37,372 bases of DNA from Candidatus Delongbacteria bacterium (lineage in GTDB: Bacteria > CAIWAD01 > BS150m-G50). The DNA is taken from positions 1 to 37,372 of the forward strand of contig JADHUQ010000003.1 in NCBI GenBank assembly GCA_016784425.1, read 5' to 3'. The notes beneath the pieces are model-generated. The model saw only the letters and a list, made by a program, of their open reading frames with translations. It was not told the origin of the DNA and searched no databases. Shown here piece after piece: positions 20,969 through 30,673 of the stretch. Both the position numbers and the translations under genes were made by a program. How positions within the stretch are numbered: position 1 is the stretch's first letter; every line of letters starts with the position of its first letter.

Positions 20969-23900
20969 TTACCGGCCAACAATGTTGGTGTTGACATTCA
21001 GACGCAGCTCCTGAAAACTGACTCTTCCGGATGGATCGCGGTTATCAAGACGCTGCCCGAACTCATACTGGATACCACCGGTAACATTGGGGGTGAAACT
21101 GTAGCGCGTTTCCAGTCTGACCGTCCAGTTTCGATTGAAATTCTCACTCGACCATTCATCCACGCCGTTGAAGGAGCTGCGGTTTGAAGTATTGGAGCGG
21201 GTGTAGGTCATCGTGAAATTGACATCATTGCGCAGTGAACCTGTTTTCATAAACCAGAGTTTGAATGGCAGTTTTGTCCCTCTACCGAGTCGGTAGGTGG
21301 TCGCGATGCTCAGATCTCTCGTATTGCTGTACTCGGCATCACGCATTTCACCAGGTTCTGAGATACCGAATGACATACGCTGATTGTAGGAGGCAGTTGT
21401 CGAGAAGCGACCGATCCAGGTGATGTTGAGTCCAACCAGGGGATTGAAGTTACGTTCGTATTCGAGTCGATTCAGACCAAGATAATCACCGAAGTCCCGG
21501 AAGGTTCTCCGGACCATGCCGGAGTAGTGATGCGACAGGTTGATCGACTGGCAGATATTCGAAACCCAGGGAAGGGATTCGAGATGGTTCCAGCGCAGTT
21601 GATAATCAGGGATTCTCACCAGTGGAATCTCATTATCAGTACCGACATTTTCTTTTAACAAATATAGCGGCAAACCGGTCCAGCTCTCCTGTCGGCTCTC
21701 GGTTTCTCCCCAACCACGCTGGATATCGATGTCGTATTGAAAATCGAGGTCGATATCACGAGTCACTTTCATCTGGGTGGTGACTCCGTAACCGCGGGTG
21801 ATGGAGGAGGTAGGATTAAAAATATACCCAGACTCAGAATTGAGCTGTTCTCTACCGGAGCCTGGATTTGATTCCAGTCCTAATTGATACGCCAGAGAAG
21901 CGTGTCGGCTGCCTGATCCGATCCCTTTGTCGTAGATGTCGTAACCGGGATCAGATTGGGTTCTGGTCAAGGTGGAGGTCAACCGGATATCCCCCAGTTT
22001 GCTGAGTACTGAATAGGTGCCCTGACGCGCGCTCCGGAAAGCACTGTCCAGTCGTTCACCCAGCGGGACCCCGGGTGTTTCAATCACCTCGGCCACAGAG
22101 GCTGAATCTGCTGCCTCCCCTTCACTACCCCTTGAACCACCACCCGCCTGGGAGCGCTCGTCCTGCGCCGGTGGCCGATTGTTGCGTCGGCTGCTGCCGG
22201 AACGGCCAGCTTTCGGCACCTGCAGCAACCAGGCGAAGATATCCTGTGGCTTCAGGGTACCATTGCCGGTAAGTGTGTTCTGGCTTCCCAGATCAACACC
22301 TTTTCGTGGATCGGCCAGGGTGCGATTCCAGGAATACTGCGTACTGTAATTGAAATCGGGGCGCAACCAGTTCAGGAACGAGGGTTGAAACTTCAGATTG
22401 GCGCTCTGCTGAATACTGCGGTCCTGAGCGAAGAGGTCGGTGGCTGCATCCTCATAGTGGTAGGTGGTGCTGTCCGTTGTATCGTACAGGTCACGCAGCC
22501 TGAAATAGAGATCGGACTGATAAGAACGATTGTAGGATAATGAGAATGACCGGAATGGTGACAGGGAATATTCAAAACGCCTGGACATGGTATAGGTGTG
22601 GTTTTCACTGGTGGTATTGTTGCGGTTATATCTCATATTCTCCGTCCAGGAGGTACTGGCACTGACACCTAGACGGGTCGGGAAATAACGGAAATTGATG
22701 TTCCGTAAACCACCCAGTAGCGGCATGCCCTCCGTCCAATTGAAAAGCGGCAACTCGTGCCTCCAGTTCGGTGAATTGCTGTAGGAGGTGCTGATCTGCT
22801 CACTGCGGGTGGTATCGGCGGCAATCTGATCGTTGCTGACATAGGTCTGTGAGACATCATATGATACAGACAGCTTATCGAGAGTATGGCTCAGCCAGGG
22901 ATTCTCCGATCCGGTCTTGCTGAAACTGATACTGCCATTGAGGGTGTGACGCCGATTGAGTATCTCTTCAGGTGGGTTATCCGGAACCAGCCGATCATCA
23001 CCGGGGAAGTACTTGGGGGAAGAAACCGATCTGTTACTGCTGAGGGACAGCGGGATGTTGGTACGCCAGGGTCGGGGCAGGAATTTATCAAGGTGGATCG
23101 TGCTGTTGGCCACCTCTGAGGTAGTGTTGTCGCCGGTTCCCATCCTCTGTTCGATAGTATGGAACTCAGAGTCCCGTTTTTCCAGCCGCCCGTAAAGGGT
23201 CATGAAATCGGATAGCCGCAGATTAACCGCCACCCGCTGGGCCTGTCCCACTTCCCGCTTTACATCGGATACCCGCAACTCATTGAAATAGACTGCTTCA
23301 CTGTTAGCCACAGCGTCATGGTTGGTTACACCGAGATAGAGAAAACTGACATCATTCAGTGATGGATTGCCCTTCACCAGCACATAACCGCCATCCGATA
23401 TCTGCTTCGGTTTTTCCGGATCCGGTTGATCCTTGGAGGAGCGACTGAACTCCTCCAGATCGGTAATCTCCTCGAAGATAATGTCCATGTTGTTCAGCTG
23501 CCAGCCGGCAGTCAGATAGCGGTGATATTCGTAGTAATCCTGTTCGGTGGATGCGAGCCGCAAACGGATCTCCAGGACGGAATCAGGGAAAACCTGCTCC
23601 CGTAATTCACTGCCCCCCCGGATAAACATTTTCAAACGGTTGTAATCGGTCAGCCGGACCCGATCATTGAGAATCTTGTAGATCCAGAAAGTGGAGTCGG
23701 CAGGCAGTTCATCCAATTGCATAACCAGTGACTGCTCCTTCTGGTAAGCACCGGTGATGGCGTCCCGGTGGCCCTGAACACCCGCTGGCGGCTCATAGTC
23801 GCTGTTTTCATGCGTATTGATGACAGCGACATTACCGTAGGCCAGGGTATCACCACTGGCTGTAACCGGGTAGATTTCACGCCATTCATTTCCGACCAGC

Positions 23901-26900
23901 ATAAAACTGGCCAGCTGCAGAGAGGTGGACTGATGGAATCCCTCAAACCAGATGCGAACCCCGCGAATGTTCTGAAACGTGGGATTGTTCCAGGCGATTT
24001 CGTACTCCTTCAACGGGATGCGATACAGGGTCCAGCCATAGGAATTCTGTGAGACCTGGTAACGTGACCAGGGGGAAGCGGGATCGGTGGAAAGGGTGTA
24101 GCTGTAATAGTTTTCGATTGTGTCCAGAACACCGTTGTTGTTACGATCTTCGGTGTCGGGCAGGTAGGTTGCAGCATCGGCACCGTTGTTCTCCAGCCCT
24201 TTGAACCACTGTCCGTTACTCTCATCGCGGTACTGCCAGTCATCACGCGACCACGGCTCCAACGCTTCCTTGCGGTTATTGCCATTGATGTCCCAGAAGT
24301 CATAAAAGGAACCAAACTCCGCCACCATGGCGGTTGAATCACCCGACCAATGGGCCATGGCGGCGGTACCGGGCCAGGGGGGATCCTCACCCGCGCGACC
24401 ATCGATACCGATATCCTCCCCCTCATCCAGCAGACCGTTGCCGACATTTACCAGCGCCGGCTCAATCCGATCCTCGGTATCCAGCTGGCCGTTGGGGATG
24501 ACATCCTCAGAGATCTCACCCAGCTCGATGTGGATCAGTCCACTGCGATCACCTGAAGATCGAACCATCAACTCAATATACTTGGTGTTGCTCTGGTCAG
24601 GATTTGCACCGCGGAAATCATGATAGAAACCGCCCCAGCTACCCCCTTCCGGGATTTCCTGTCCCTGCTCACCGGTTTCATAGAGGAGAGGATAAAAGTC
24701 CATCTGCAATATCTGCAGGTCATCGTTCTGCAGATTTCCGGAATCATACTCCTCCCAGATCTCCTGCTTGGGAACCCGTTGCCGGGGGCTGTAAGCGGTC
24801 GCAATCCCGCGATCTCCGGTCAGAGTGTGGGCGGGGCTGGAAGAGATGAACCAGGCGCCGGATCGCATACCGAGATCCTGTTCCCGCTTTATCGACTCGA
24901 AGTCGTCAAGATAGGCGACGCCGTTGTTGTCACCCGTTGCTGGATTGTTGAGGGGGTTGGGGTTGGGAATAACCCGGGCGATCTCCCCTTCAATACTGAT
25001 CTCAGATTCCTGCTCCGCCTCTACCAGCGGTATGGAATCGATCATCCGGGTGAGAAAGCGGGGATGAAACTCCAGTGCACCGTTGAGGTCCAGCACCAGG
25101 TTGCGCATCGGTTCGTTCCCGATTCTGACCTTGTCCTCCTGGATCTGCTGATTGAGATACAGGACAGTCGCCCCCAGGTAGGATGCCTCATCAAAGTTGT
25201 ACTGCCCGCGGACACCCATGATGGTCTTCTTTTCGATGGAGATCATTTCATGATTCTGGTAGGTGATCTCCAGGCTGGCGCCGGGATTATCAGCTTCACT
25301 GGTCAGGATGGTGACGATACCGGCCACGTAGTCGATCGTATAGTCTTTGTCCCGCTGCAGTTTCTGACCGTTGAGTTTAACCGTCTCAGATCCCTCGATA
25401 ACATTCCAGCCCAGGTCGTATACCTTACTCAGTGTCAGGACGCTGGTCTCCATGTAGAAACGCTGGCTCAGGCGCTGGAAGTCGTTGTGGGTGGTTGGGA
25501 TGTTGTAGATCGTCTCCAGCGTATCAGCCTCGTTAAAATTGGTCTGCAGAGTGCTGTCCGCCACGATGACATAGGCGTCCTGCTGGCCAAACGGTTCCAG
25601 TGAGGGAAAGGAGATTATCCCCGTGTTGGTATCAATCCAGCGAGAATCGATTTTGTTGTCCGGTGACTGCTGACCGGAGGTGTTTTCATTATCGAGATGC
25701 AGAATTTCGATATAGGGAACACCACCCTGGTGATCTGGATCGGAACTGCCGGTAGTGTATCTGCGAATGGCAAAATTCAGGTCGTCGATACTCTTGCCAG
25801 CGGTGGCCACCTGATACTTGTTACGCAGCATCAGATCCCAGTGAGGCGTGGCGGGATCCTGGTGTGAGTCGCGGAGAATATAGACTGCATTATCCCCGTA
25901 GAGAGCAGGTGAGGGGAATTCCACACCCAGTTTGTTCTTGAAGGAAACTGCCAGGATATCGTTGGGTCGGAGATAACTGTTGATGAGGATATACCCGAGA
26001 TCATCATTGCGCTGGTATTCGCTGTCACTCAGGCGGCGCATCGGCTGATTGGTATAGATCGGTGTGTCCTCACCCTCTTCATAGATATCCAGGTTCTCAT
26101 CACCGCTGGCTGAAGAGATGTACATTTCGACAAAGTCAACCCTACTGTTTGCATTCACCAGGTGTTCCCAGCGATCAGTGTAGACAGGATAGGCAATGCG
26201 ATAGGAATGGCTGAGAAAGAAGTAACGATCGGAGATGAACTGCGTGGGGAAAATCTGCGACTTCTGTTCCGATTGTCCACCGGTGAATGTCTGCGACTGG
26301 TTTTCTCCATGCTCGACACTCATGATGGCGGTCATATTGAGTGGACCGAATTGCATGACGGTTTTCAATCCGAACAGCCCGGAATTACGACCGGAGAAGG
26401 TGACAAAATCGGCACCCGGGAGTGAGAGGCTGACATTACCGGCGGAGATCGATTTGATAATCTCATCTTCGGTTCCGGTATAGGTCAAACGCAGTGAGTT
26501 TTGCCAATCGAAAGTATTATCGGTGTCCTGATCAATGTTGATATCAACTTTCTGGCCAATTTTCCCGACAATGGTGAACCGCTGCTGCATGTCCATATTG
26601 AAATTAGTGTTGTTCGCCTGGTTGGTATAGGAATCCTGTCGCTCCCGTTTTTCCTTACGAAAGCCACCGTTGATATTGATATTCCCGGTTGCATCCAGAC
26701 CGATGCGACCGTCCCCGAAAAACTTGCGGAAGGTCTTGTTACGGACTTTAAAGGGGATGTCGATCTTCAGGGCGCCACCGGCACGTTGCTGGACCTGGTT
26801 CTTGGTACGCAGCATCTCATGACGCAACTGCTGAACCGCATGATGCAGCAGCATCCGTTCATAGTAAGCTTCAGTAGTGAGAAAAATGACATACTGGAAG

Positions 26901-27220
26901 GTGCTGTCCTTATCGAGATACTCCAACCGGACCAGGGTATCACTCATGACAGTTCGAATAATCAACTGGACCGGCTCTGTAGCAGTCAGACGGGGTTGAA
27001 AACCGGCGCTTTGCCAGCTGGCAGCCAGAAAAGGGGTTTCCGCGGAGGGATAGGTAGCGTCATGGTAGATATATTCTTTTGCTTTAACTGCAAGACTCAG
27101 CGATGACAAAAACAGTCCCGGGAGCAGGAGAAGCCAGAGCAATAAAGGATGACGACGAAGGCACTTCCGGAAGTGTCGCCTGCAGACAGGTTCTGGTATT
27201 GGTAATTGTGTTGCTCGCAT
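20969..27220 (-). CDS. sprA: SprA/Sov-family large outer-membrane translocon (type IX secretion)
   Basis: About 2080 aa with signal peptide. NFNMDMQQ..IVGKIGQKV, LTYTGTEDEIIKSISAGNVSLSLP, LFGLKT, EGSETVKLNG, DYTIDY, YLDDFE, TEDRNNNG, YFNELR and a beta-strand-rich C-terminus are typical of SprA. Start uncertain (ORF track 27295 overlaps rnz). Confidence 0.88.
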   Translation of the reverse strand: MRATQLPIPEPVCRRHFRKCLRRHPLLLWLLLLPGLFLSSLSLAVKAKEYIYHDATYPSAETPFLAASWQSAGFQPRLTATEPVQLIIRTVMSDTLVRLEYLDKDSTFQYVIFLTTEAYYERMLLHHAVQQLRHEMLRTKNQVQQRAGGALKIDIPFKVRNKTFRKFFGDGRIGLDATGNININGGFRKEKRERQDSYTNQANNTNFNMDMQQRFTIVGKIGQKVDINIDQDTDNTFDWQNSLRLTYTGTEDEIIKSISAGNVSLSLPGADFVTFSGRNSGLFGLKTVMQFGPLNMTAIMSVEHGENQSQTFTGGQSEQKSQIFPTQFISDRYFFLSHSYRIAYPVYTDRWEHLVNANSRVDFVEMYISSASGDENLDIYEEGEDTPIYTNQPMRRLSDSEYQRNDDLGYILINSYLRPNDILAVSFKNKLGVEFPSPALYGDNAVYILRDSHQDPATPHWDLMLRNKYQVATAGKSIDDLNFAIRRYTTGSSDPDHQGGVPYIEILHLDNENTSGQQSPDNKIDSRWIDTNTGIISFPSLEPFGQQDAYVIVADSTLQTNFNEADTLETIYNIPTTHNDFQRLSQRFYMETSVLTLSKVYDLGWNVIEGSETVKLNGQKLQRDKDYTIDYVAGIVTILTSEADNPGASLEITYQNHEMISIEKKTIMGVRGQYNFDEASYLGATVLYLNQQIQEDKVRIGNEPMRNLVLDLNGALEFHPRFLTRMIDSIPLVEAEQESEISIEGEIARVIPNPNPLNNPATGDNNGVAYLDDFESIKREQDLGMRSGAWFISSSPAHTLTGDRGIATAYSPRQRVPKQEIWEEYDSGNLQNDDLQILQMDFYPLLYETGEQGQEIPEGGSWGGFYHDFRGANPDQSNTKYIELMVRSSGDRSGLIHIELGEISEDVIPNGQLDTEDRIEPALVNVGNGLLDEGEDIGIDGRAGEDPPWPGTAAMAHWSGDSTAMVAEFGSFYDFWDINGNNRKEALEPWSRDDWQYRDESNGQWFKGLENNGADAATYLPDTEDRNNNGVLDTIENYYSYTLSTDPASPWSRYQVSQNSYGWTLYRIPLKEYEIAWNNPTFQNIRGVRIWFEGFHQSTSLQLASFMLVGNEWREIYPVTASGDTLAYGNVAVINTHENSDYEPPAGVQGHRDAITGAYQKEQSLVMQLDELPADSTFWIYKILNDRVRLTDYNRLKMFIRGGSELREQVFPDSVLEIRLRLASTEQDYYEYHRYLTAGWQLNNMDIIFEEITDLEEFSRSSKDQPDPEKPKQISDGGYVLVKGNPSLNDVSFLYLGVTNHDAVANSEAVYFNELRVSDVKREVGQAQRVAVNLRLSDFMTLYGRLEKRDSEFHTIEQRMGTGDNTTSEVANSTIHLDKFLPRPWRTNIPLSLSSNRSVSSPKYFPGDDRLVPDNPPEEILNRRHTLNGSISFSKTGSENPWLSHTLDKLSVSYDVSQTYVSNDQIAADTTRSEQISTSYSNSPNWRHELPLFNWTEGMPLLGGLRNINFRYFPTRLGVSASTSWTENMRYNRNNTTSENHTYTMSRRFEYSLSPFRSFSLSYNRSYQSDLYFRLRDLYDTTDSTTYHYEDAATDLFAQDRSIQQSANLKFQPSFLNWLRPDFNYSTQYSWNRTLADPRKGVDLGSQNTLTGNGTLKPQDIFAWLLQVPKAGRSGSSRRNNRPPAQDERSQAGGGSRGSEGEAADSASVAEVIETPGVPLGERLDSAFRSARQGTYSVLSKLGDIRLTSTLTRTQSDPGYDIYDKGIGSGSRHASLAYQLGLESNPGSGREQLNSESGYIFNPTSSITRGYGVTTQMKVTRDIDLDFQYDIDIQRGWGETESRQESWTGLPLYLLKENVGTDNEIPLVRIPDYQLRWNHLESLPWVSNICQSINLSHHYSGMVRRTFRDFGDYLGLNRLEYERNFNPLVGLNITWIGRFSTTASYNQRMSFGISEPGEMRDAEYSNTRDLSIATTYRLGRGTKLPFKLWFMKTGSLRNDVNFTMTYTRSNTSNRSSFNGVDEWSSENFNRNWTVRLETRYSFTPNVTGGIQYEFGQRLDNRDPSGRVSFQELRLNVNTNIVGR

Positions 27221-27267
27221 ATGAACTAGAGCTGTGCAGCGGAAGTCGGCGATACCTGCTCTGGTAT

Positions 27268-28284
27268 TTATTGCTCCGGTTTCCTCATCGCACACATATC
27301 CTTCTCGTTCTTTCTGGATGGTCTGCTGCTGTTGCGGGCACGATAAATGATCTCCGGACGCCCGCTGGCAGGTATCACGACACGCATCAGGTCCGCGGCA
27401 AGAACTGCCCCGGGAAGTTCCTGTTCAAGCTGCTCCTGGATTACATTACCTCGATTCAGGTAACGGGAGCTGACATGTGTGAGTATCAGATCTCTTACGC
27501 CAGCCTCCCTGGCAACCTGAACGGCGTCACTCACAGTTGAGTGCTGGGTTCGACGGGCGTTCTTGCGGTCGTCATTGTCATATGTACTTTCATGGATCAG
27601 AATATCAGCCTTGCGGGCAAGATCGACTGAGGCTGTTGTGTAAGTTGAGTCGGTAATGTAGACGATTTTCCGACCTGGCAGTGGCGGCGTGACCAGATCA
27701 CCGCTGCTGATAATCCTGCCATCCTTAAGGGTGATATCCCTGCCCTCTTTCAGCAGACGACGCTCCGGTCCCTCCGGAATACCTAACTCGGCTGCCAGCG
27801 CTGCGTTGAGTCGCCCGGGACGCAATTTCTCGACCAGCGAATATGCCAGTGTGTAAATGCGGTGTCGCACCCGCACTGCCTCCAGCCAGTACTCCGTAGT
27901 TTCAAGAATTGTCTGCGGTTCTTTGCCAATCGTCAGTTCATGAATTTTCAGGGGGTAATTAAAATCGGTTTCAGATATCCGTTTCATGAAACGTACATAT
28001 TCGGCGATTCCGGGCGGACCAAAAATCTGAAGCGGTTCTTCCCGTTTGTTCAGTTGGAATGAGGTCAGCAAACCGATCAATCCGTAGAAGTGATCGCCGT
28101 GCAGGTGGGTGATGAGAATCTTCCTGATTCGTGACCGCTTCAAGGGACTGCGTATAATCTGATGTTGCGTCCCCTCACCGCAATCAAAGAGCAGGACTTC
28201 TCTCTCCCTCTTGCAGGCGAGGGCGGCCACGTTTCGCTCAAAAGTCGGGGTCGCCGAGCCGGTCCCCAGGAAGACTAATTCCAT
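27268..28284 (-). CDS. rnz: Ribonuclease Z
   Basis: FLGTGSATP, FDCGEGTQ, THLHGDH, exosite GIPEGP, HEST, HST, THVSSRY. Confidence 0.95.
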   Translation of the reverse strand: MELVFLGTGSATPTFERNVAALACKREREVLLFDCGEGTQHQIIRSPLKRSRIRKILITHLHGDHFYGLIGLLTSFQLNKREEPLQIFGPPGIAEYVRFMKRISETDFNYPLKIHELTIGKEPQTILETTEYWLEAVRVRHRIYTLAYSLVEKLRPGRLNAALAAELGIPEGPERRLLKEGRDITLKDGRIISSGDLVTPPLPGRKIVYITDSTYTTASVDLARKADILIHESTYDNDDRKNARRTQHSTVSDAVQVAREAGVRDLILTHVSSRYLNRGNVIQEQLEQELPGAVLAADLMRVVIPASGRPEIIYRARNSSRPSRKNEKDMCAMRKPEQ

Positions 28285-28750
28285 ATGGATAAGTTAAGTC
28301 CTTATAGTATTGCTACAGATGAATGACCGAAATCAGGAAGACATTCTATAGCAATAGTAGTTACCGCGGCTTATGACGTTTCCTAAAGGACATTCTTACA
28401 AGCTTACAAGCATCGGTAGAATAGTGATTTTTTAAGTAAATGAAAATGCGGGGTTATGCAAAAGAAATCGCCAGGTGAATTGATCCCGGCAGGGAGACAA
28501 GGCAGCAACCCAGTCTTTGACCGATGATGTTTCAGTCTCAAGATAGAGCTGCCTTCCAGGTGAACTTAATTACAGGAGAAACTCAAACCTCACTTATCTG
28601 CTCAAGTTTCCTACCTCTAAAAATGCGAACTTTGCCCCAGTTGTTATCGCAAAATCGTTGTGGAAGAGATGAGCCGGGGAGCCGTTACAGTAAAAGTAAT
28701 CTTGTCTTTCTGACAGTCCTGTAATGGTCTGCAACAGCTGTTCGGATTAC

Positions 28751-28785
28751 AAAAAAAAAGGCAAATGCGGGGAGCATTTGCCTTT
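28751..28785 (-). terminator. Rho-independent terminator
   Basis: Perfect stem AAAGGCAAATGC-TCCCC-GCATTTGCCTTT running into T9 on the minus strand (A9 at 28751-28759 on plus). Confidence 0.88.
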
Positions 28786-28843
28786 GGGAAGTGTACGAAA
28801 GACGATTCAACAATATTAGGGAGTGTAATATAGAAGCGTTCGC
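28751..28843 (-). ncRNA. Candidate sigma54-dependent small RNA, about 93 nt
   Basis: Lies between a consensus -24/-12 promoter and a strong terminator on the same strand. No ATG-started ORF inside. Two hairpins with C-rich loops. Confidence 0.68.
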
Positions 28844-28853
28844 TTATTAGCAA

Positions 28854-28870
28854 AGCAAACTGCGTGCCAA
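28854..28870 (-). promoter_or_regulatory. sigma54 (-24/-12) promoter
   Basis: Minus strand TTGGCACG-CAGT-TTGCT, an exact match to YTGGCACG-N4-TTGCW, with AT-rich upstream DNA. Confidence 0.85.
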
Positions 28871-29206
28871 AATATTACACAGCTTCTTACACTGTTTATT
28901 ATTGATTTACATACATTATCATACTGGGGCTGATTCGTTGTTTTGGTGATATAAACCACTGCTGCAAAGAGTTGTTGCTCTAATGTAAGAAATACAGTAC
29001 AATTCAGCCATTTATGGAACGATAATGGATCAAACAGGAGTTGTTAGTCTTAACCACAATAATGGTTTATATCAACCGTTCATCAAAAACCAGATAATCC
29101 TGTTCATTTTGACCGGAGCACGCAATTTCACCACCTCATGCTGAAGAAGAAATTCTTGTAGAAGTGTACAAAGAGGTATAACTTTGCTGGAAATGAGGAG
29201 GCAATT

Positions 29207-30673
29207 ATGCGTTTAGTCACGATCGCTGTTTTCCTGGGGTGCTCGCTGGTAACCGGTTGGGCACAGGGGAATTCTCCGGTAGAACCTGCGGCGGAGGGAT
29301 CTACACAACCCTTTCATCTGTCTGTTGGTGTCGGCGCTGTGACAATGGACGGAGAAACATATCAGCAGATATCGCTTCGCCCTGAGATTCCTCTGGGTAA
29401 GTTTGGAATCGGTCTTGATATCACCATTTTCTTTGATGCAGATGGTAATATACGCAGCAAGGATTGGGATGAGCCGGCTGATTTACTGGACAAGATCCGC
29501 TACCTGCGTTATGGCCACCCCGGGGAGCAACTCTATATCCGTGCCGGAGCCCTGGATAATGTTACCCTCGGCTACGGCATCCTGATGAAACACTATTCCA
29601 ACTCAATTGATTACCCTTCAGTCAGAAGACTGGGTGCAAATTTTCAGGTGCGGGGGGCCGGTTTTCAGCTGGAGGGTATGTTCAACGATTTTCGGGAATT
29701 GACTGAACCTGGTCTGCTCGGTGTCCGGATGAGTCGGCCGCTACTCTGGGGTTTCACCGCCGGTGCCTCTATTGTAGCTGACGGCAACCAGTACGCCAAT
29801 CTGGTAGACGAGGACAACGATGATGTGCCGGATGAGCTCGATCGTTTTCCTGGTGAAAATGACACGGAAGTATACAGCTGGCTGGCGGCACTGTACCAGA
29901 GCAATCAGCTTGCCTACGATGGTTTAAGGGGTCAATACCCCGAGTGGCCGGAAGATCCGACCACCGCCACACCCGACTATACACCGGGCAAAGATCCGGT
30001 TACCGCAGTCGCCTTCGATCTCGGCTATCCCCTGCTGGGTAATAAATTACTCCTCTATGCCCAGGGTGCGCACTTTGTGGCGCATGGTTTTGGCATTGCA
30101 GCCCCAGGTGTAGTTTTTCAACCGGTCAATTCCCTGAGTATGGGTGTTGAATACCGATCCTACACCGACGAGTTCATCCCTGAGTTTTTCGATAGAACTT
30201 ATGAGCTCAATCGTTATTCCGTGGTGGATGTTAATGGTCAGGCAGCACTCAGGTCACGCGAATCATATCTGTTGGCTAACGCAAAGGCAGCTCGAGGTGT
30301 TTACGCAAGTGTCAATTTCCAGCTGCTGAGTCTGGTGGATGGTACCCTGGCGTACACCAGCATGCATCCGGTGGCTGAAGGGGATCAGACCAATACAATA
30401 TACGGTTCGCTAGGGCTTAATATGGCGCGTGTCCCCAAACTGACGGAGCTTTCCGCCTATTATTATCAGGCAAACGTGAAGAAGTTGTTCATACTGGAGC
30501 CAAACGCGTTACCTATCTGGGGTTACAAGATCGGTTACGAGATAACCAGTGGTGTCAATCTGCTCCTGAACTACCGTTATACCTATCAGGATCTTGACGG
30601 TGACGGTATAATCAGCGGAACTGCTGAACAGGTAAAGACATTTTCCATCGAAACATATTTCACGGTGCGGTAG
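29207..30673 (+). CDS. Secreted, probably outer-membrane beta-barrel protein of unknown function with Ca-binding-like acidic motifs
   Basis: SD GAGGAGG, signal peptide ending GWA-Q, many amphipathic strands, DEDNDDVPDELDRFP (thrombospondin type-3-like), DLDGDG, ends IETYFTVR. Confidence 0.7.
   Translation: MRLVTIAVFLGCSLVTGWAQGNSPVEPAAEGSTQPFHLSVGVGAVTMDGETYQQISLRPEIPLGKFGIGLDITIFFDADGNIRSKDWDEPADLLDKIRYLRYGHPGEQLYIRAGALDNVTLGYGILMKHYSNSIDYPSVRRLGANFQVRGAGFQLEGMFNDFRELTEPGLLGVRMSRPLLWGFTAGASIVADGNQYANLVDEDNDDVPDELDRFPGENDTEVYSWLAALYQSNQLAYDGLRGQYPEWPEDPTTATPDYTPGKDPVTAVAFDLGYPLLGNKLLLYAQGAHFVAHGFGIAAPGVVFQPVNSLSMGVEYRSYTDEFIPEFFDRTYELNRYSVVDVNGQAALRSRESYLLANAKAARGVYASVNFQLLSLVDGTLAYTSMHPVAEGDQTNTIYGSLGLNMARVPKLTELSAYYYQANVKKLFILEPNALPIWGYKIGYEITSGVNLLLNYRYTYQDLDGDGIISGTAEQVKTFSIETYFTVR

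What the first reader, a model, noticed from the sequence alone, without database searches (positions are those of the whole stretch)
28751..28870. Self-contained sigma54-driven small RNA with three anti-Shine-Dalgarno-like motifs
Seen: in the 920-bp rnz/OMP intergenic gap, a perfect sigma54 promoter (TTGGCACGCAGTTTGCT) points at a perfect intrinsic terminator. This defines a ~93-nt transcript: GCGAACGCUUCUAUAUUACACUCCCUAAUAUUGUUGAAUCGUCUUUCGUACACUUCCCAAAGGCAAAUGCUCCCCGCAUUUGCCUUUUUUUUU. It repeats UACACU(U)CCC twice: once centred on the loop of hairpin AUAUUA-CACUCCC-UAAUAU (28813-28831) and once in the linker (28786-28795). The terminator loop is UCCCC. Known: exposed UCCC/CUCC motifs are seeds of base-pairing sRNAs such as staphylococcal RsaE and rhizobial AbcR/NfeR1, and sigma54 drives sRNAs such as Qrr and GlmY. 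Inference: an unannotated trans-acting regulatory sRNA; I do not recognise it as a named family.
Basis: partly seen in the sequence, partly recalled or inferred. Interest (0 to 1): 0.85.

Follow-up and report, generated by a model that had tools for sequence, protein, structure and literature searches.

The report
Sigma-54-driven small RNA gene candidate
Between two genes of an uncultured marine bacterium lies a short non-coding RNA gene with its own sigma-54 promoter, enhancer sites and terminator, kept almost unchanged in a related species; it is a credible new example of a known kind of regulator, but its expression and its targets remain untested.

Summary
On the minus strand, TGGCACgcagtTTGC (28869-28855) lies about 12 nt before a 93-nt unit (28843-28751). 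That unit ends in a 12-bp hairpin plus U9.

The unit matches no Rfam family. The genome has rpoN and 11 strong activator genes.

A congeneric species, G002, keeps the RNA at about 95% identity, including 53 invariant bases in a row. The flanking genes are only 68-70% identical in DNA. G002 also keeps the promoter hexamers and two upstream TGGTTTATAT sites at -108 and -227. Those sites occur nowhere else in either genome.

A third congener, G001, lacks the whole module. It also lacks one orphan NtrC-type response regulator that the other two genomes share.

The loop CACUCCC and the linker ACACUUCCC are predicted to be fully unpaired. Hfq was not found in any of the 12 genomes of the phylum.

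No RNA data cover the unit, and target prediction gave only one weak lead.

Verdict: a real, new sRNA gene of a known kind, most like the LuxO/Qrr circuit in control and like sX13 in its C-rich loops. The scan has noted the same kind, though not this sequence, in other phyla.

The parts
29063..29077 (+). Distal enhancer-like site TGGTTTATATCAACC (part of the palindrome GGTTGATATAAACC), centred about -227 from the predicted start
   Evidence: The motif is found in G000 only at this locus. G002 has the equivalent site at about -226.
28944..28958 (-). Proximal enhancer-like site TGGTTTATATCACCA, centred about -108
   Evidence: G002 has GTGGTTTATATGACCAC at -108. The 12-mer is absent from G001.
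28855..28870 (-). Sigma-54 promoter tTGGCAC-gcagt-TTGC (-24 GG and -12 GC)
   Evidence: G002 has TGGCAC-attct-TTGCA at the same distance (13 nt) from the conserved block.
28751..28843 (-). Predicted 93-nt sRNA. The start (about 28843, give or take 2) is inferred from the promoter geometry, and the end is the last U of the terminator tail
   Evidence: Identity to G002 is about 95%, with 53 invariant columns in a row.
28795..28843 (-). Stem-loop 1 (RNA 1-49). Its apical hairpin AUAUUA/UAAUAU displays CACUCCC (28825-28819)
   Evidence: Loop bases have unpaired probability 1.00. No covariation is available because the stem is identical in the two sequences.
28786..28794 (-). Single-stranded linker ACACUUCCC (RNA 50-58), the second copy of UACACU-Y-CC
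   Evidence: unpaired probability 0.98-1.00. G002 has ACACUUUCC.
28751..28785 (-). Intrinsic terminator: 12-bp stem, loop UCCCC (28773-28769) and U9 tail
   Evidence: In G002 the stem is kept (one A-U becomes G-U), the loop is AACCCC and the tail is U7.
28457..28470 (-). CGATTTCTTTTGCA, conserved upstream of rnz in all three congeners. It is probably part of rnz's own promoter region and not part of the sRNA
   Evidence: It is also present in G001, which lacks the sRNA.
27268..28284 (-). rnz (RNase Z), the downstream neighbour, 467 nt beyond the terminator
29207..30673 (+).

Best explanation
This is an independent gene for a ~93-nt regulatory RNA.

Proposed mechanism:
1. Sigma-54 RNA polymerase binds TGGCAC-N5-TTGC and waits in a closed complex.
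2. An NtrC-family activator bound to the two TGGTTTATAT(C/G)A sites at about -108 and -227 opens the complex when its receiver domain is phosphorylated. The best candidate is the orphan REC-AAA+-HTH response regulator at G000:C62:639-2009.
3. Transcription starts near 28843 and stops at the hairpin plus U9 at 28751.
4. The RNA folds into a long 5' stem-loop that exposes CACUCCC, a single-stranded ACACUUCCC linker, and the terminator.
5. It then acts in trans, without Hfq. The exposed UACACU-Y-CC elements pair with G-rich, Shine-Dalgarno-like mRNA sites (GGRAGUGUA) and most likely block translation initiation.

What is shown: the sequence anatomy, the conservation pattern, the presence of rpoN and activators, the exclusivity of the upstream sites, and the co-occurrence with one activator gene.

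What is inferred: the transcription itself, the start site, which activator acts, trans action, and the targets.

The confidence of 0.6 is for the whole chain. My separate estimates are about 0.8 that this is a genuine sigma-54-dependent sRNA gene, about 0.55 that it acts by base pairing, and about 0.45 that the C62 regulator is its activator.
For: Promoter and terminator:
- Both are exact.
- TGGCAC-N5-TTGC is used in this lineage. G000 has 22 sites. G001 has 23 sites against 1 for the reversed control pattern.
- rpoN scores 197 bits. PF00158 gave 13 matches, 11 of them at E <= 2e-53.

Homologue in G002:
- blastn gives 95% identity over query positions 56-148 only, that is from the predicted start to the U-tract.
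- There are 53 invariant columns in a row.
- For comparison, rnz is 70.2% and the secreted-protein gene 68.2% identical in DNA. The proteins are 71% and 62% identical.
- The G002 promoter keeps both hexamers and the 13-nt distance to the conserved block, although its spacer and flanks differ.

Upstream sites:
- TGGTTTATAT[CG]A occurs twice in G000, twice in G002 and not at all in G001.
- All four copies lie at about -108 and about -227 from the two sRNA genes.

G001 (97% complete):
- The same two flanking genes are 225 bp apart, with no module between them.
- A covariance-model search finds no copy elsewhere in it.

Candidate activator:
- Of the 11 G000 activators, 9 have reciprocal best hits in both congeners and 1 in neither.
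- Exactly 1 has a reciprocal best hit in G002 (73% identity) but none in G001.
- The synteny MFS-RsgA-activator-HDOD holds in G000 and G002.
- G001 has MFS-RsgA-100 nt-HDOD with no activator.
- The DNA-binding helix region of the two activators is nearly identical.

RNA properties:
- The seed elements are predicted unpaired at 0.98-1.00.
- Hfq (PF17209) was found in 0 of 12 genomes of the phylum.

Precedents for C-rich loops that act without Hfq: sX13 (abstract read) and 6C (title and start of abstract).

One target lead: a ~192-aa lipoprotein gene has GGGAGUG, the exact complement of the loop, at its ribosome-binding site in both sRNA-bearing genomes. The G001 orthologue has GGAAGGAAA instead.
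Against: - No expression evidence. None of the 14 listed runs is on record as RNA. The one run labelled metatranscriptomic (which the tool flags as probably DNA) has no contig over 28751-28845.
- Only two sequences of the family exist, so no base pair shows covariation (0 of 24 pairs). The structure rests on energy alone.
- Two of the three C-rich motifs change in G002.
- Target prediction failed its main test. Five sites at ribosome-binding positions were picked from the top 25 hits of the loop seed in the genome-wide scan. Three were compared with G002 orthologues (PspC, AddA-like, subtilase), and the UGUA extension was conserved in 0 of 3. The LRR protein has no clear orthologue. The FtsX gene was not tested.
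- The lipoprotein lead was found post hoc (1 of 2 testable G002 sites). Its G000 duplex is only 8 bp and was not among the top 25 hits of the scan.
- The activator assignment rests on three genomes. G000 is only 67% complete, and three further G002 activators (L114, L122, L125) also lack a G001 orthologue.
- The family is narrow: 2 of 12 genomes of the phylum. There were no true hits in the metagenome scan (4 loci, all chance). In the genome-collection scan 1 of 3 loci was real, and it is G002's own contig.
Confidence: 0.6

Rival explanations
1. The RNA is real, but it works by binding or titrating a protein (an RNA-binding regulator, an RNase or the ribosome) through the repeated UACACU elements. 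It does not work by pairing with mRNAs.
For: The conservation is unusually uniform for a base-pairing sRNA: 53 invariant bases in a row, covering stems, loops and the inter-hairpin segment. The element that stays constant in both repeats is UACACU, not the C-run. No target passed the conservation test among the three top hits tested.
Against: No candidate protein partner is known. The motifs are not GGA-type CsrA sites. Exposed C-rich loops have experimental precedent as pairing seeds (sX13 abstract). One ribosome-binding site co-varies with the presence of the sRNA.
Confidence: 0.15
2. It is a cis-acting leader or attenuator. The sigma-54 promoter really serves rnz (or the 467-nt region before it), and the terminator is a regulated stop.
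For: It has the same orientation as rnz and lies next to rnz in both genomes that have it.
Against: The terminator is strong (12 bp plus U9) and no alternative anti-terminator fold was seen among the suboptimal structures. The 467 nt (G000) or about 270 nt (G002) between terminator and rnz are poorly conserved and differ in length. The motif CGATTTCTTTTGCA upstream of rnz is conserved in all three congeners, including G001, where rnz exists without the module.
Confidence: 0.07
3. It is not a functional gene: a chance or relic promoter-terminator pair, or a recently transferred DNA segment whose similarity reflects recent transfer and not selection.
For: Only two genomes carry it. It is missing from a congener. 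There are no expression data.
Against: A recent transfer would have kept the spacers as well. Instead, only the RNA, the two promoter hexamers and the two upstream sites are conserved within an otherwise diverged gap. The positions -108 and -227 are kept to within 1-2 bp. A match to the promoter consensus is expected 0.06 times in the window.
Confidence: 0.05
4. It encodes a small protein.
For: Open frames overlap it (69 aa from TTG at 28853; 42 aa from TTG at 28813).
Against: Neither frame has a Shine-Dalgarno sequence. Both read through the terminator into sequence that is not conserved in G002. The conserved block ends at the U-tract.
Confidence: 0.03

Closest known systems
LuxO / Qrr sRNAs of Vibrio
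   Same: An NtrC-type response regulator (REC-AAA+-HTH) activates sigma-54 promoters of short, terminator-ended, trans-acting sRNAs with a very highly conserved core. The regulator's output is essentially the sRNA gene(s). Sources: abstract of 10.1101/2021.07.01.450815 (seen) and passages of PMC4211561.
   Different: There is no sequence or Rfam similarity. The activator scores 360 bits against the LuxO equivalog cut-off of 800. The sRNA gene is not beside the activator gene. From recall, Qrr sRNAs need Hfq, and Hfq was not found in this phylum. There is one copy, not siblings. No pairing with the activator mRNA was found.
GlrR / GlmY (and GlmZ) of Enterobacteriaceae
   Same: A sigma-54 promoter with upstream activator sites drives an sRNA gene, under a response regulator with a very small regulon. 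Only the reference title on sigma-54/sigma-70 control of GlmY was seen. The rest is recalled.
   Different: From recall, GlmY acts by protein mimicry and titration, not through C-rich seeds. There is no Rfam match. The activator scores 308 bits against the GlrR cut-off of 763.
sX13 of Xanthomonas
   Same: C-rich motifs exposed in hairpin loops, targets with G-rich motifs at ribosome-binding sites, and activity without Hfq (abstract).
   Different: sX13 has three stable stems with three C-rich apical loops (4C motifs). Here there is one loop, one linker and a terminator loop, and the motif is UACACUCCC. The sX13 abstract mentions no sigma-54 control. There is no sequence relation.
RsaE/RoxS, 6C and the rhizobial anti-SD sRNAs (NfeR1/ar14, CcsR)
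   Same: UCCC or C-rich unpaired motifs serve as seeds. For 6C, action is independent of chaperones (title and abstract start). An Rsa conserved motif is reported in PMC2790875 (listing only).
   Different: None of these Rfam families matches, even at E <= 10. From recall, those RNAs are not sigma-54 dependent.
Other sigma-54-dependent sRNAs: NrsZ (Pseudomonas), the Campylobacter CJnc230/FlmE study (RpoN-dependent flagellar tier), Pxr (Myxococcus)
   Same: NrsZ is induced by NtrB/C (abstract start). That the FlmE and Pxr promoters are sigma-54 type is recalled; the abstract starts seen do not state it.
   Different: The sequences are unrelated. Those RNAs belong to regulons that also hold protein genes. 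Here the activator sites occur only at the sRNA.

Membership tests
Any curated RNA family (Rfam 15, including Qrr, GlmY/GlmZ, RsaE, AbcR, NfeR1/ar14, CcsR) | A covariance-model match at or near the family's gathering score | tested here: not met
   cmscan of 28200-29300 at E <= 10 gave 2 hits. Both are eukaryotic snoRNA models (E 1.6 and 2.5) and neither lies on the transcript. The whole window at gathering score gave only a tRNA.
Sigma-54-dependent transcription unit | -24 GG / -12 GC promoter (TGGCAC-N5-TTGC) at the correct spacing | tested here: met
   It is conserved in G002.
Sigma-54-dependent transcription unit | rpoN and enhancer-binding proteins are encoded in the genome | tested here: met
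   Sigma54_DBD scores 197 bits. There are 11 strong PF00158 genes.
Sigma-54-dependent transcription unit | Upstream activator sites about 80-250 bp from the promoter | tested here: inconclusive
   Two conserved palindrome-like sites lie at -108 and -227 and are exclusive to the locus. Their binding by an activator is not shown.
Sigma-54-dependent transcription unit | Transcription abolished without rpoN or the activator | not testable with these tools
   The organism is uncultured and no RNA run is available.
Trans-acting base-pairing sRNA | A discrete short transcript with its own promoter and an intrinsic terminator, and no ORF | tested here: inconclusive
   The DNA signals and the conservation boundaries fit. 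The transcript itself has not been observed.
Trans-acting base-pairing sRNA | A conserved, accessible seed | tested here: met
   CACUCCC is invariant and unpaired. The linker motif is partly conserved.
Trans-acting base-pairing sRNA | Targets with conserved complementarity | tested here: inconclusive
   0 of 3 top predictions are conserved. One post hoc lipoprotein lead co-varies with the presence of the sRNA.
Hfq-dependent sRNA | An Hfq gene is present in the organism | tested here: not met
   PF17209 was found in 0 of 12 genomes of the phylum. 11 of the 12 are at least 90% complete, and G000 itself is 67%.
LuxO-Qrr circuit | The activator is a LuxO orthologue and the sRNA matches the Qrr model | tested here: not met
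   The LuxO equivalog scores 360 bits against a cut-off of 800. There is no Qrr hit.

The most novel reading that the evidence does not exclude
This is a self-contained two-part switch. An orphan NtrC-type response regulator has a single-gene regulon, namely this one sRNA, because its binding motif occurs only there in two genomes. The activator and the sRNA are gained or lost together. The circuit works like LuxO-Qrr or GlrR-GlmY, but it arose independently, in a barely sampled marine phylum without Hfq. It converts one phosphorylation signal into post-transcriptional control of envelope or secreted proteins, with a lipoprotein as the first candidate.
Probability: 0.35. Interest if true: 0.6.

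Novelty: new member of a known kind. Interest (0 to 1): 0.5.

Why it matters
Sigma-54-driven sRNAs are known from a handful of Proteobacteria, Campylobacterota and Myxococcota.

This candidate would extend the design (response regulator, then sigma-54 promoter, then a single sRNA) to an uncultured marine lineage. Its phylum has only 12 species representatives and no detectable Hfq.

The case is also unusually clean. The putative activator sites occur only at the sRNA gene. One activator gene shares the sRNA's presence/absence pattern. So a two-plasmid reporter test in E. coli could establish the circuit without culturing the organism.

Earlier notes of this scan describe sigma-54 sRNAs with C-rich loops in Planctomycetota, Steroidobacteraceae and Syntrophales (unchecked). 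Together with those, this finding hints that the combination is a recurrent, convergent solution.

On its own it adds a member, not a principle.

Tried and rejected
1. RNA evidence. No RNA holder is listed among the 14 runs. Of the four runs laid, the one labelled metatranscriptomic (flagged 'probably DNA') has only a 259-nt contig at 28444-28702 and nothing on the sRNA. This says nothing about expression.

2. More homologues.
- blastn over 61 genomes found only G002 as a true match. The same held over the 12 genomes of the phylum.
- The covariance model R1 over the 12 genomes found only G000 and G002. A G008 hit at E = 0.096 is a terminator-like hairpin at a gene start.
- The metagenome scan with a 19-mer gave 4 loci, all chance.
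- The genome-collection scan with a two-seed pattern gave 3 loci. Two are chance and one is G002's own contig.

3. Functional analogues in G001. None of its 23 strict sigma-54 sites is followed by a similar RNA.

4. The divergent secreted-protein gene as a target. There is a 9+5-bp match at -47 in G000 (-15.6 kcal/mol, about z = -2.7 against the genome-wide windows). No counterpart exists in G002, so this is not supported.

5. rnz leader as a target. Nothing stands out.

6. Genome-wide duplex scan.
- The ribosome-binding-site hits were PspC, an AddA-like helicase, an LRR protein, a subtilase and FtsX.
- Conservation in G002 was 0 of 3 tested. The LRR protein has no clear orthologue. FtsX was not tested.
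- One top intergenic hit is a tRNA promoter.

7. Qrr-like feedback on the activator mRNA. Energies are at background level.

8. GGGAGTGTA sites in G002. There are 24 against 3 for the reversed control, but 24 is about what uniform base frequencies predict (my arithmetic). Three lie at starts, and none is orthologous to the G000 hits apart from the lipoprotein lead. The linker complement AAGTGTACG has 5 sites against 9 for the control.

9. Small-ORF reading. Rejected.

10. The 259-nt region as a structured RNA. z = +1.3 and 0.0 on the two strands, with no Rfam hit.

11. Supplements of papers were not consulted.

Full report
**1. Observation**

- On the minus strand the sequence reads tTGGCACgcagtTTGCt (28870-28854). 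Thirteen bases further on, a block begins that runs to an intrinsic terminator.
- The terminator is a 12-bp stem AAAGGCAAAUGC/GCAUUUGCCUUU with loop UCCCC and a U9 tail ending at 28751.
- With the usual geometry (start about 12 nt after the -12 GC), the RNA starts at about 28843 and is 93 nt long.
- The promoter pattern TGGCAC-N5-TTGC occurs once in the window, against 0.06 expected. Six of 100 shuffles had at least one match.
- The gap spans 28285-29206 (922 bp).
- The downstream gene is RNase Z (TIGR02651, 333 bits against a cut-off of 293).
- The divergent 488-aa protein has a signal peptide and a strand-like C-terminal pattern. It has no Pfam family, and its Atlas neighbours are only hypothetical proteins. 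'OMP' is therefore plausible but unproven.

**2. Is the machinery there?**

- The assembly is a 1.94-Mb, 67%-complete MAG.
- It encodes rpoN and 13 PF00158 matches, 11 of them strong.
- It holds 22 TGGCAC-N5-TTGC sites. My hand estimate from base composition is about 4.
- In the 97%-complete congener G001 the tool's own control is clearer: 23 sites against 1 for the reversed pattern.

**3. Conservation**

- Among 61 relatives, and among all 12 species representatives of the phylum, only one other genome (G002, same genus) has the sequence.
- The blastn match covers query positions 56-148 only. That is from the predicted start to the U-tract, at 95% identity.
- In the alignment, 53 consecutive columns are invariant.
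- The differences are two bases at +1/+2, two in the linker (CUUCCCA becomes CUUUCCG), the terminator loop (UCCCC becomes AACCCC), and the tail length.
- The neighbouring genes are far less alike. rnz is 70.2% and the secreted-protein gene 68.2% identical in DNA. Their proteins are 71% and 62% identical.
- Within the otherwise diverged gap, the conserved islands are as follows:
  - the RNA;
  - TGGCAC and TTGC, with a different spacer but the same 13-nt distance to the block;
  - two upstream sites;
  - a short AT-rich stretch.
- This island pattern argues for selection on a transcript and its control sites. It argues against recent transfer of the whole segment.
- G001 has the same two flanking genes only 225 bp apart. 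It has no promoter, no sites and no RNA there, and no copy elsewhere.

**4. Control region**

- The 12-mer TGGTTTATAT[CG]A occurs twice in G000, twice in G002 and not at all in G001. All four copies lie upstream of the sRNA genes.
- The sites are centred at -108/-227 in G000 and -108/-226 in G002. The positions are my arithmetic from the coordinates.
- These distances are typical for activators of sigma-54 promoters (established knowledge).
- The putative activator would therefore have this RNA gene as its only detectable target in two genomes.

**5. Candidate activator**

- I extracted all strong activator genes of the three congeners (11, 13 and 17) and compared them.
- Of the 11 in G000, nine have reciprocal best hits in both congeners. 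One has a hit in neither.
- Exactly one (C62:639-2009, minus strand) has a reciprocal best hit in G002 (73% identity) and none in G001 (best 43%, not reciprocal).
- It is a REC-AAA+-HTH_8 response regulator with no adjacent kinase. It sits in the conserved order MFS-RsgA-activator-HDOD.
- In G001, RsgA and the HDOD gene (67% identical to G002's) are separated by 100 nt with no activator.
- The C-terminal HTH region is almost identical in the two orthologues.
- The protein is below every NCBIfam equivalog cut-off. The best is AtoC at 429 bits against 714. LuxO scores 360 against 800, and GlrR 308 against 763.
- This is co-occurrence in three genomes, so it is only a lead. Three G002-only activators (L114, L122, L125) cannot be excluded, because G000 is incomplete.

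**6. The RNA**

- The 95-nt stretch 28845-28751 folds at -22.6 kcal/mol (z = -5.3; 0 of 200 shuffles reach it). For G002 the values are -20.2 and z = -3.5.
- The ensemble gives a long 5' stem-loop (RNA 1-49) whose apex is AUAUUA-CACUCCC-UAAUAU. This is followed by a single-stranded ACACUUCCC and then the terminator.
- Loop, linker and terminator loop are unpaired with probability 0.98-1.00.
- With two near-identical sequences, no pair shows covariation (0 of 24).
- The element repeated and kept in both species is UACACU followed by pyrimidines and CC.
- Hfq was found in 0 of 12 genomes of the phylum.

**7. Targets**

- A duplex scan of the whole assembly with the loop and linker seeds put several ribosome-binding sites of the type GGGGAGUGUA among the top hits. 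These were PspC, an AddA-like helicase-nuclease, an LRR/PKD surface protein, a subtilase and an FtsX permease.
- In the three genes with clear G002 orthologues, the extension beyond the Shine-Dalgarno core is not conserved (0 of 3).
- The neighbouring secreted-protein leader has a 9+5-bp match in G000 only.
- Pairing with the activator mRNA is at background level.
- Starting instead from G002, 3 of its 24 GGGAGTGTA sites lie at starts. Two of those genes have G000 orthologues.
[quoted passage not shown] The orthologue in G001, which lacks the sRNA, has GGAAGGAAA instead.
- This lead is post hoc and the G000 duplex is only 8 bp, so it should be treated as a lead and not as evidence for the mechanism.

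**8. Comparison and novelty**

- No Rfam family matches, even at E <= 10.
- In control logic the nearest system is LuxO-Qrr: a response regulator plus sigma-54 drives short sRNAs with an invariant core (abstract seen; passages). GlrR-GlmY is the next nearest (mostly recalled).
- In effector design the nearest is sX13: C-rich loops, G-rich ribosome-binding-site targets, and Hfq dispensable (abstract). RsaE/RoxS and 6C are also close (listing).
- Every membership test by sequence failed, so this is a new family of a known kind.
- This scan has already noted the same kind in other phyla (unchecked notes). It has not noted this sequence.
- I found no paper on this RNA. A sequence as such cannot be searched for in that library.

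**9. Verdict**

- That this is a genuine sigma-54-dependent sRNA gene: about 0.8.
- That it acts by base pairing through the exposed UACACU-Y-CC elements: about 0.55.
- That the C62 regulator is its activator: about 0.45.
- Interest is moderate. It is a clean, testable circuit in an unexplored lineage, but not a new principle.

Noticed in passing
window 28444-28702: The only contig that run X10 places convincingly on the 3.4-kb stretch covers exactly this 259-nt intergenic piece, at depth 35.7 and 100% identity. Its only other piece is a 40-nt match with 4 mismatches. X10 is labelled metatranscriptomic, but the tool flags it as probably DNA. The piece is not repeated in the genome, not structured (z = +1.3 and 0.0), not in Rfam and largely absent from G002. 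A sigma-70-like promoter on the plus strand at 28395-28422 could start it. It remains unexplained.
   Followed up: partly
window 28302-28359: A repeat of about 55 nt just upstream of rnz recurs at 88-100% identity on contigs C118, C4, C116, C119 and C111 of the same genome. It also appears in several metagenome contigs with different flanks. It may be a small dispersed repeat.
   Followed up: partly
window 28752-29019 (run X6): A low-depth contig (about 2x) of an estuary metagenome appears to match from the end of the U-tract (28752) up to 29019, with unlike sequence on both sides (loose ends in table 7 and depth bins). It may be a third copy of the sRNA module in another context. Its letters were not available.
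   Followed up: no
G000 contigs C49 (minus, 16129), C57 (minus, 14195), C86 (plus, 5099), C27 (minus, 25667): These are other sigma-54-like promoters followed within 120-200 nt by terminator-like hairpins. They could be further sRNA or leader candidates.
   Followed up: no
G000:C41 about 24100 (L162): A run of 12 G directly precedes the start codon of a 398-aa secreted BNR-like protein. Its G002 orthologue has GGGAGUGUA at the same place. The G-run could be a phase-variable or sRNA-targeted site.
   Followed up: partly
L088 (genome collection): G002's contig is titled 'uncultured Bacteroidia bacterium' in its public record. The tool's taxonomy, however, puts the genus in a phylum with only 12 species representatives. 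The genes seen here also use strong GGAGG-type Shine-Dalgarno sites, so the record's label looks loose.
   Followed up: no
window 20969-27295 (minus strand): A 2108-aa open reading frame lies directly downstream of rnz and overlaps its end. It was not examined.
   Followed up: no
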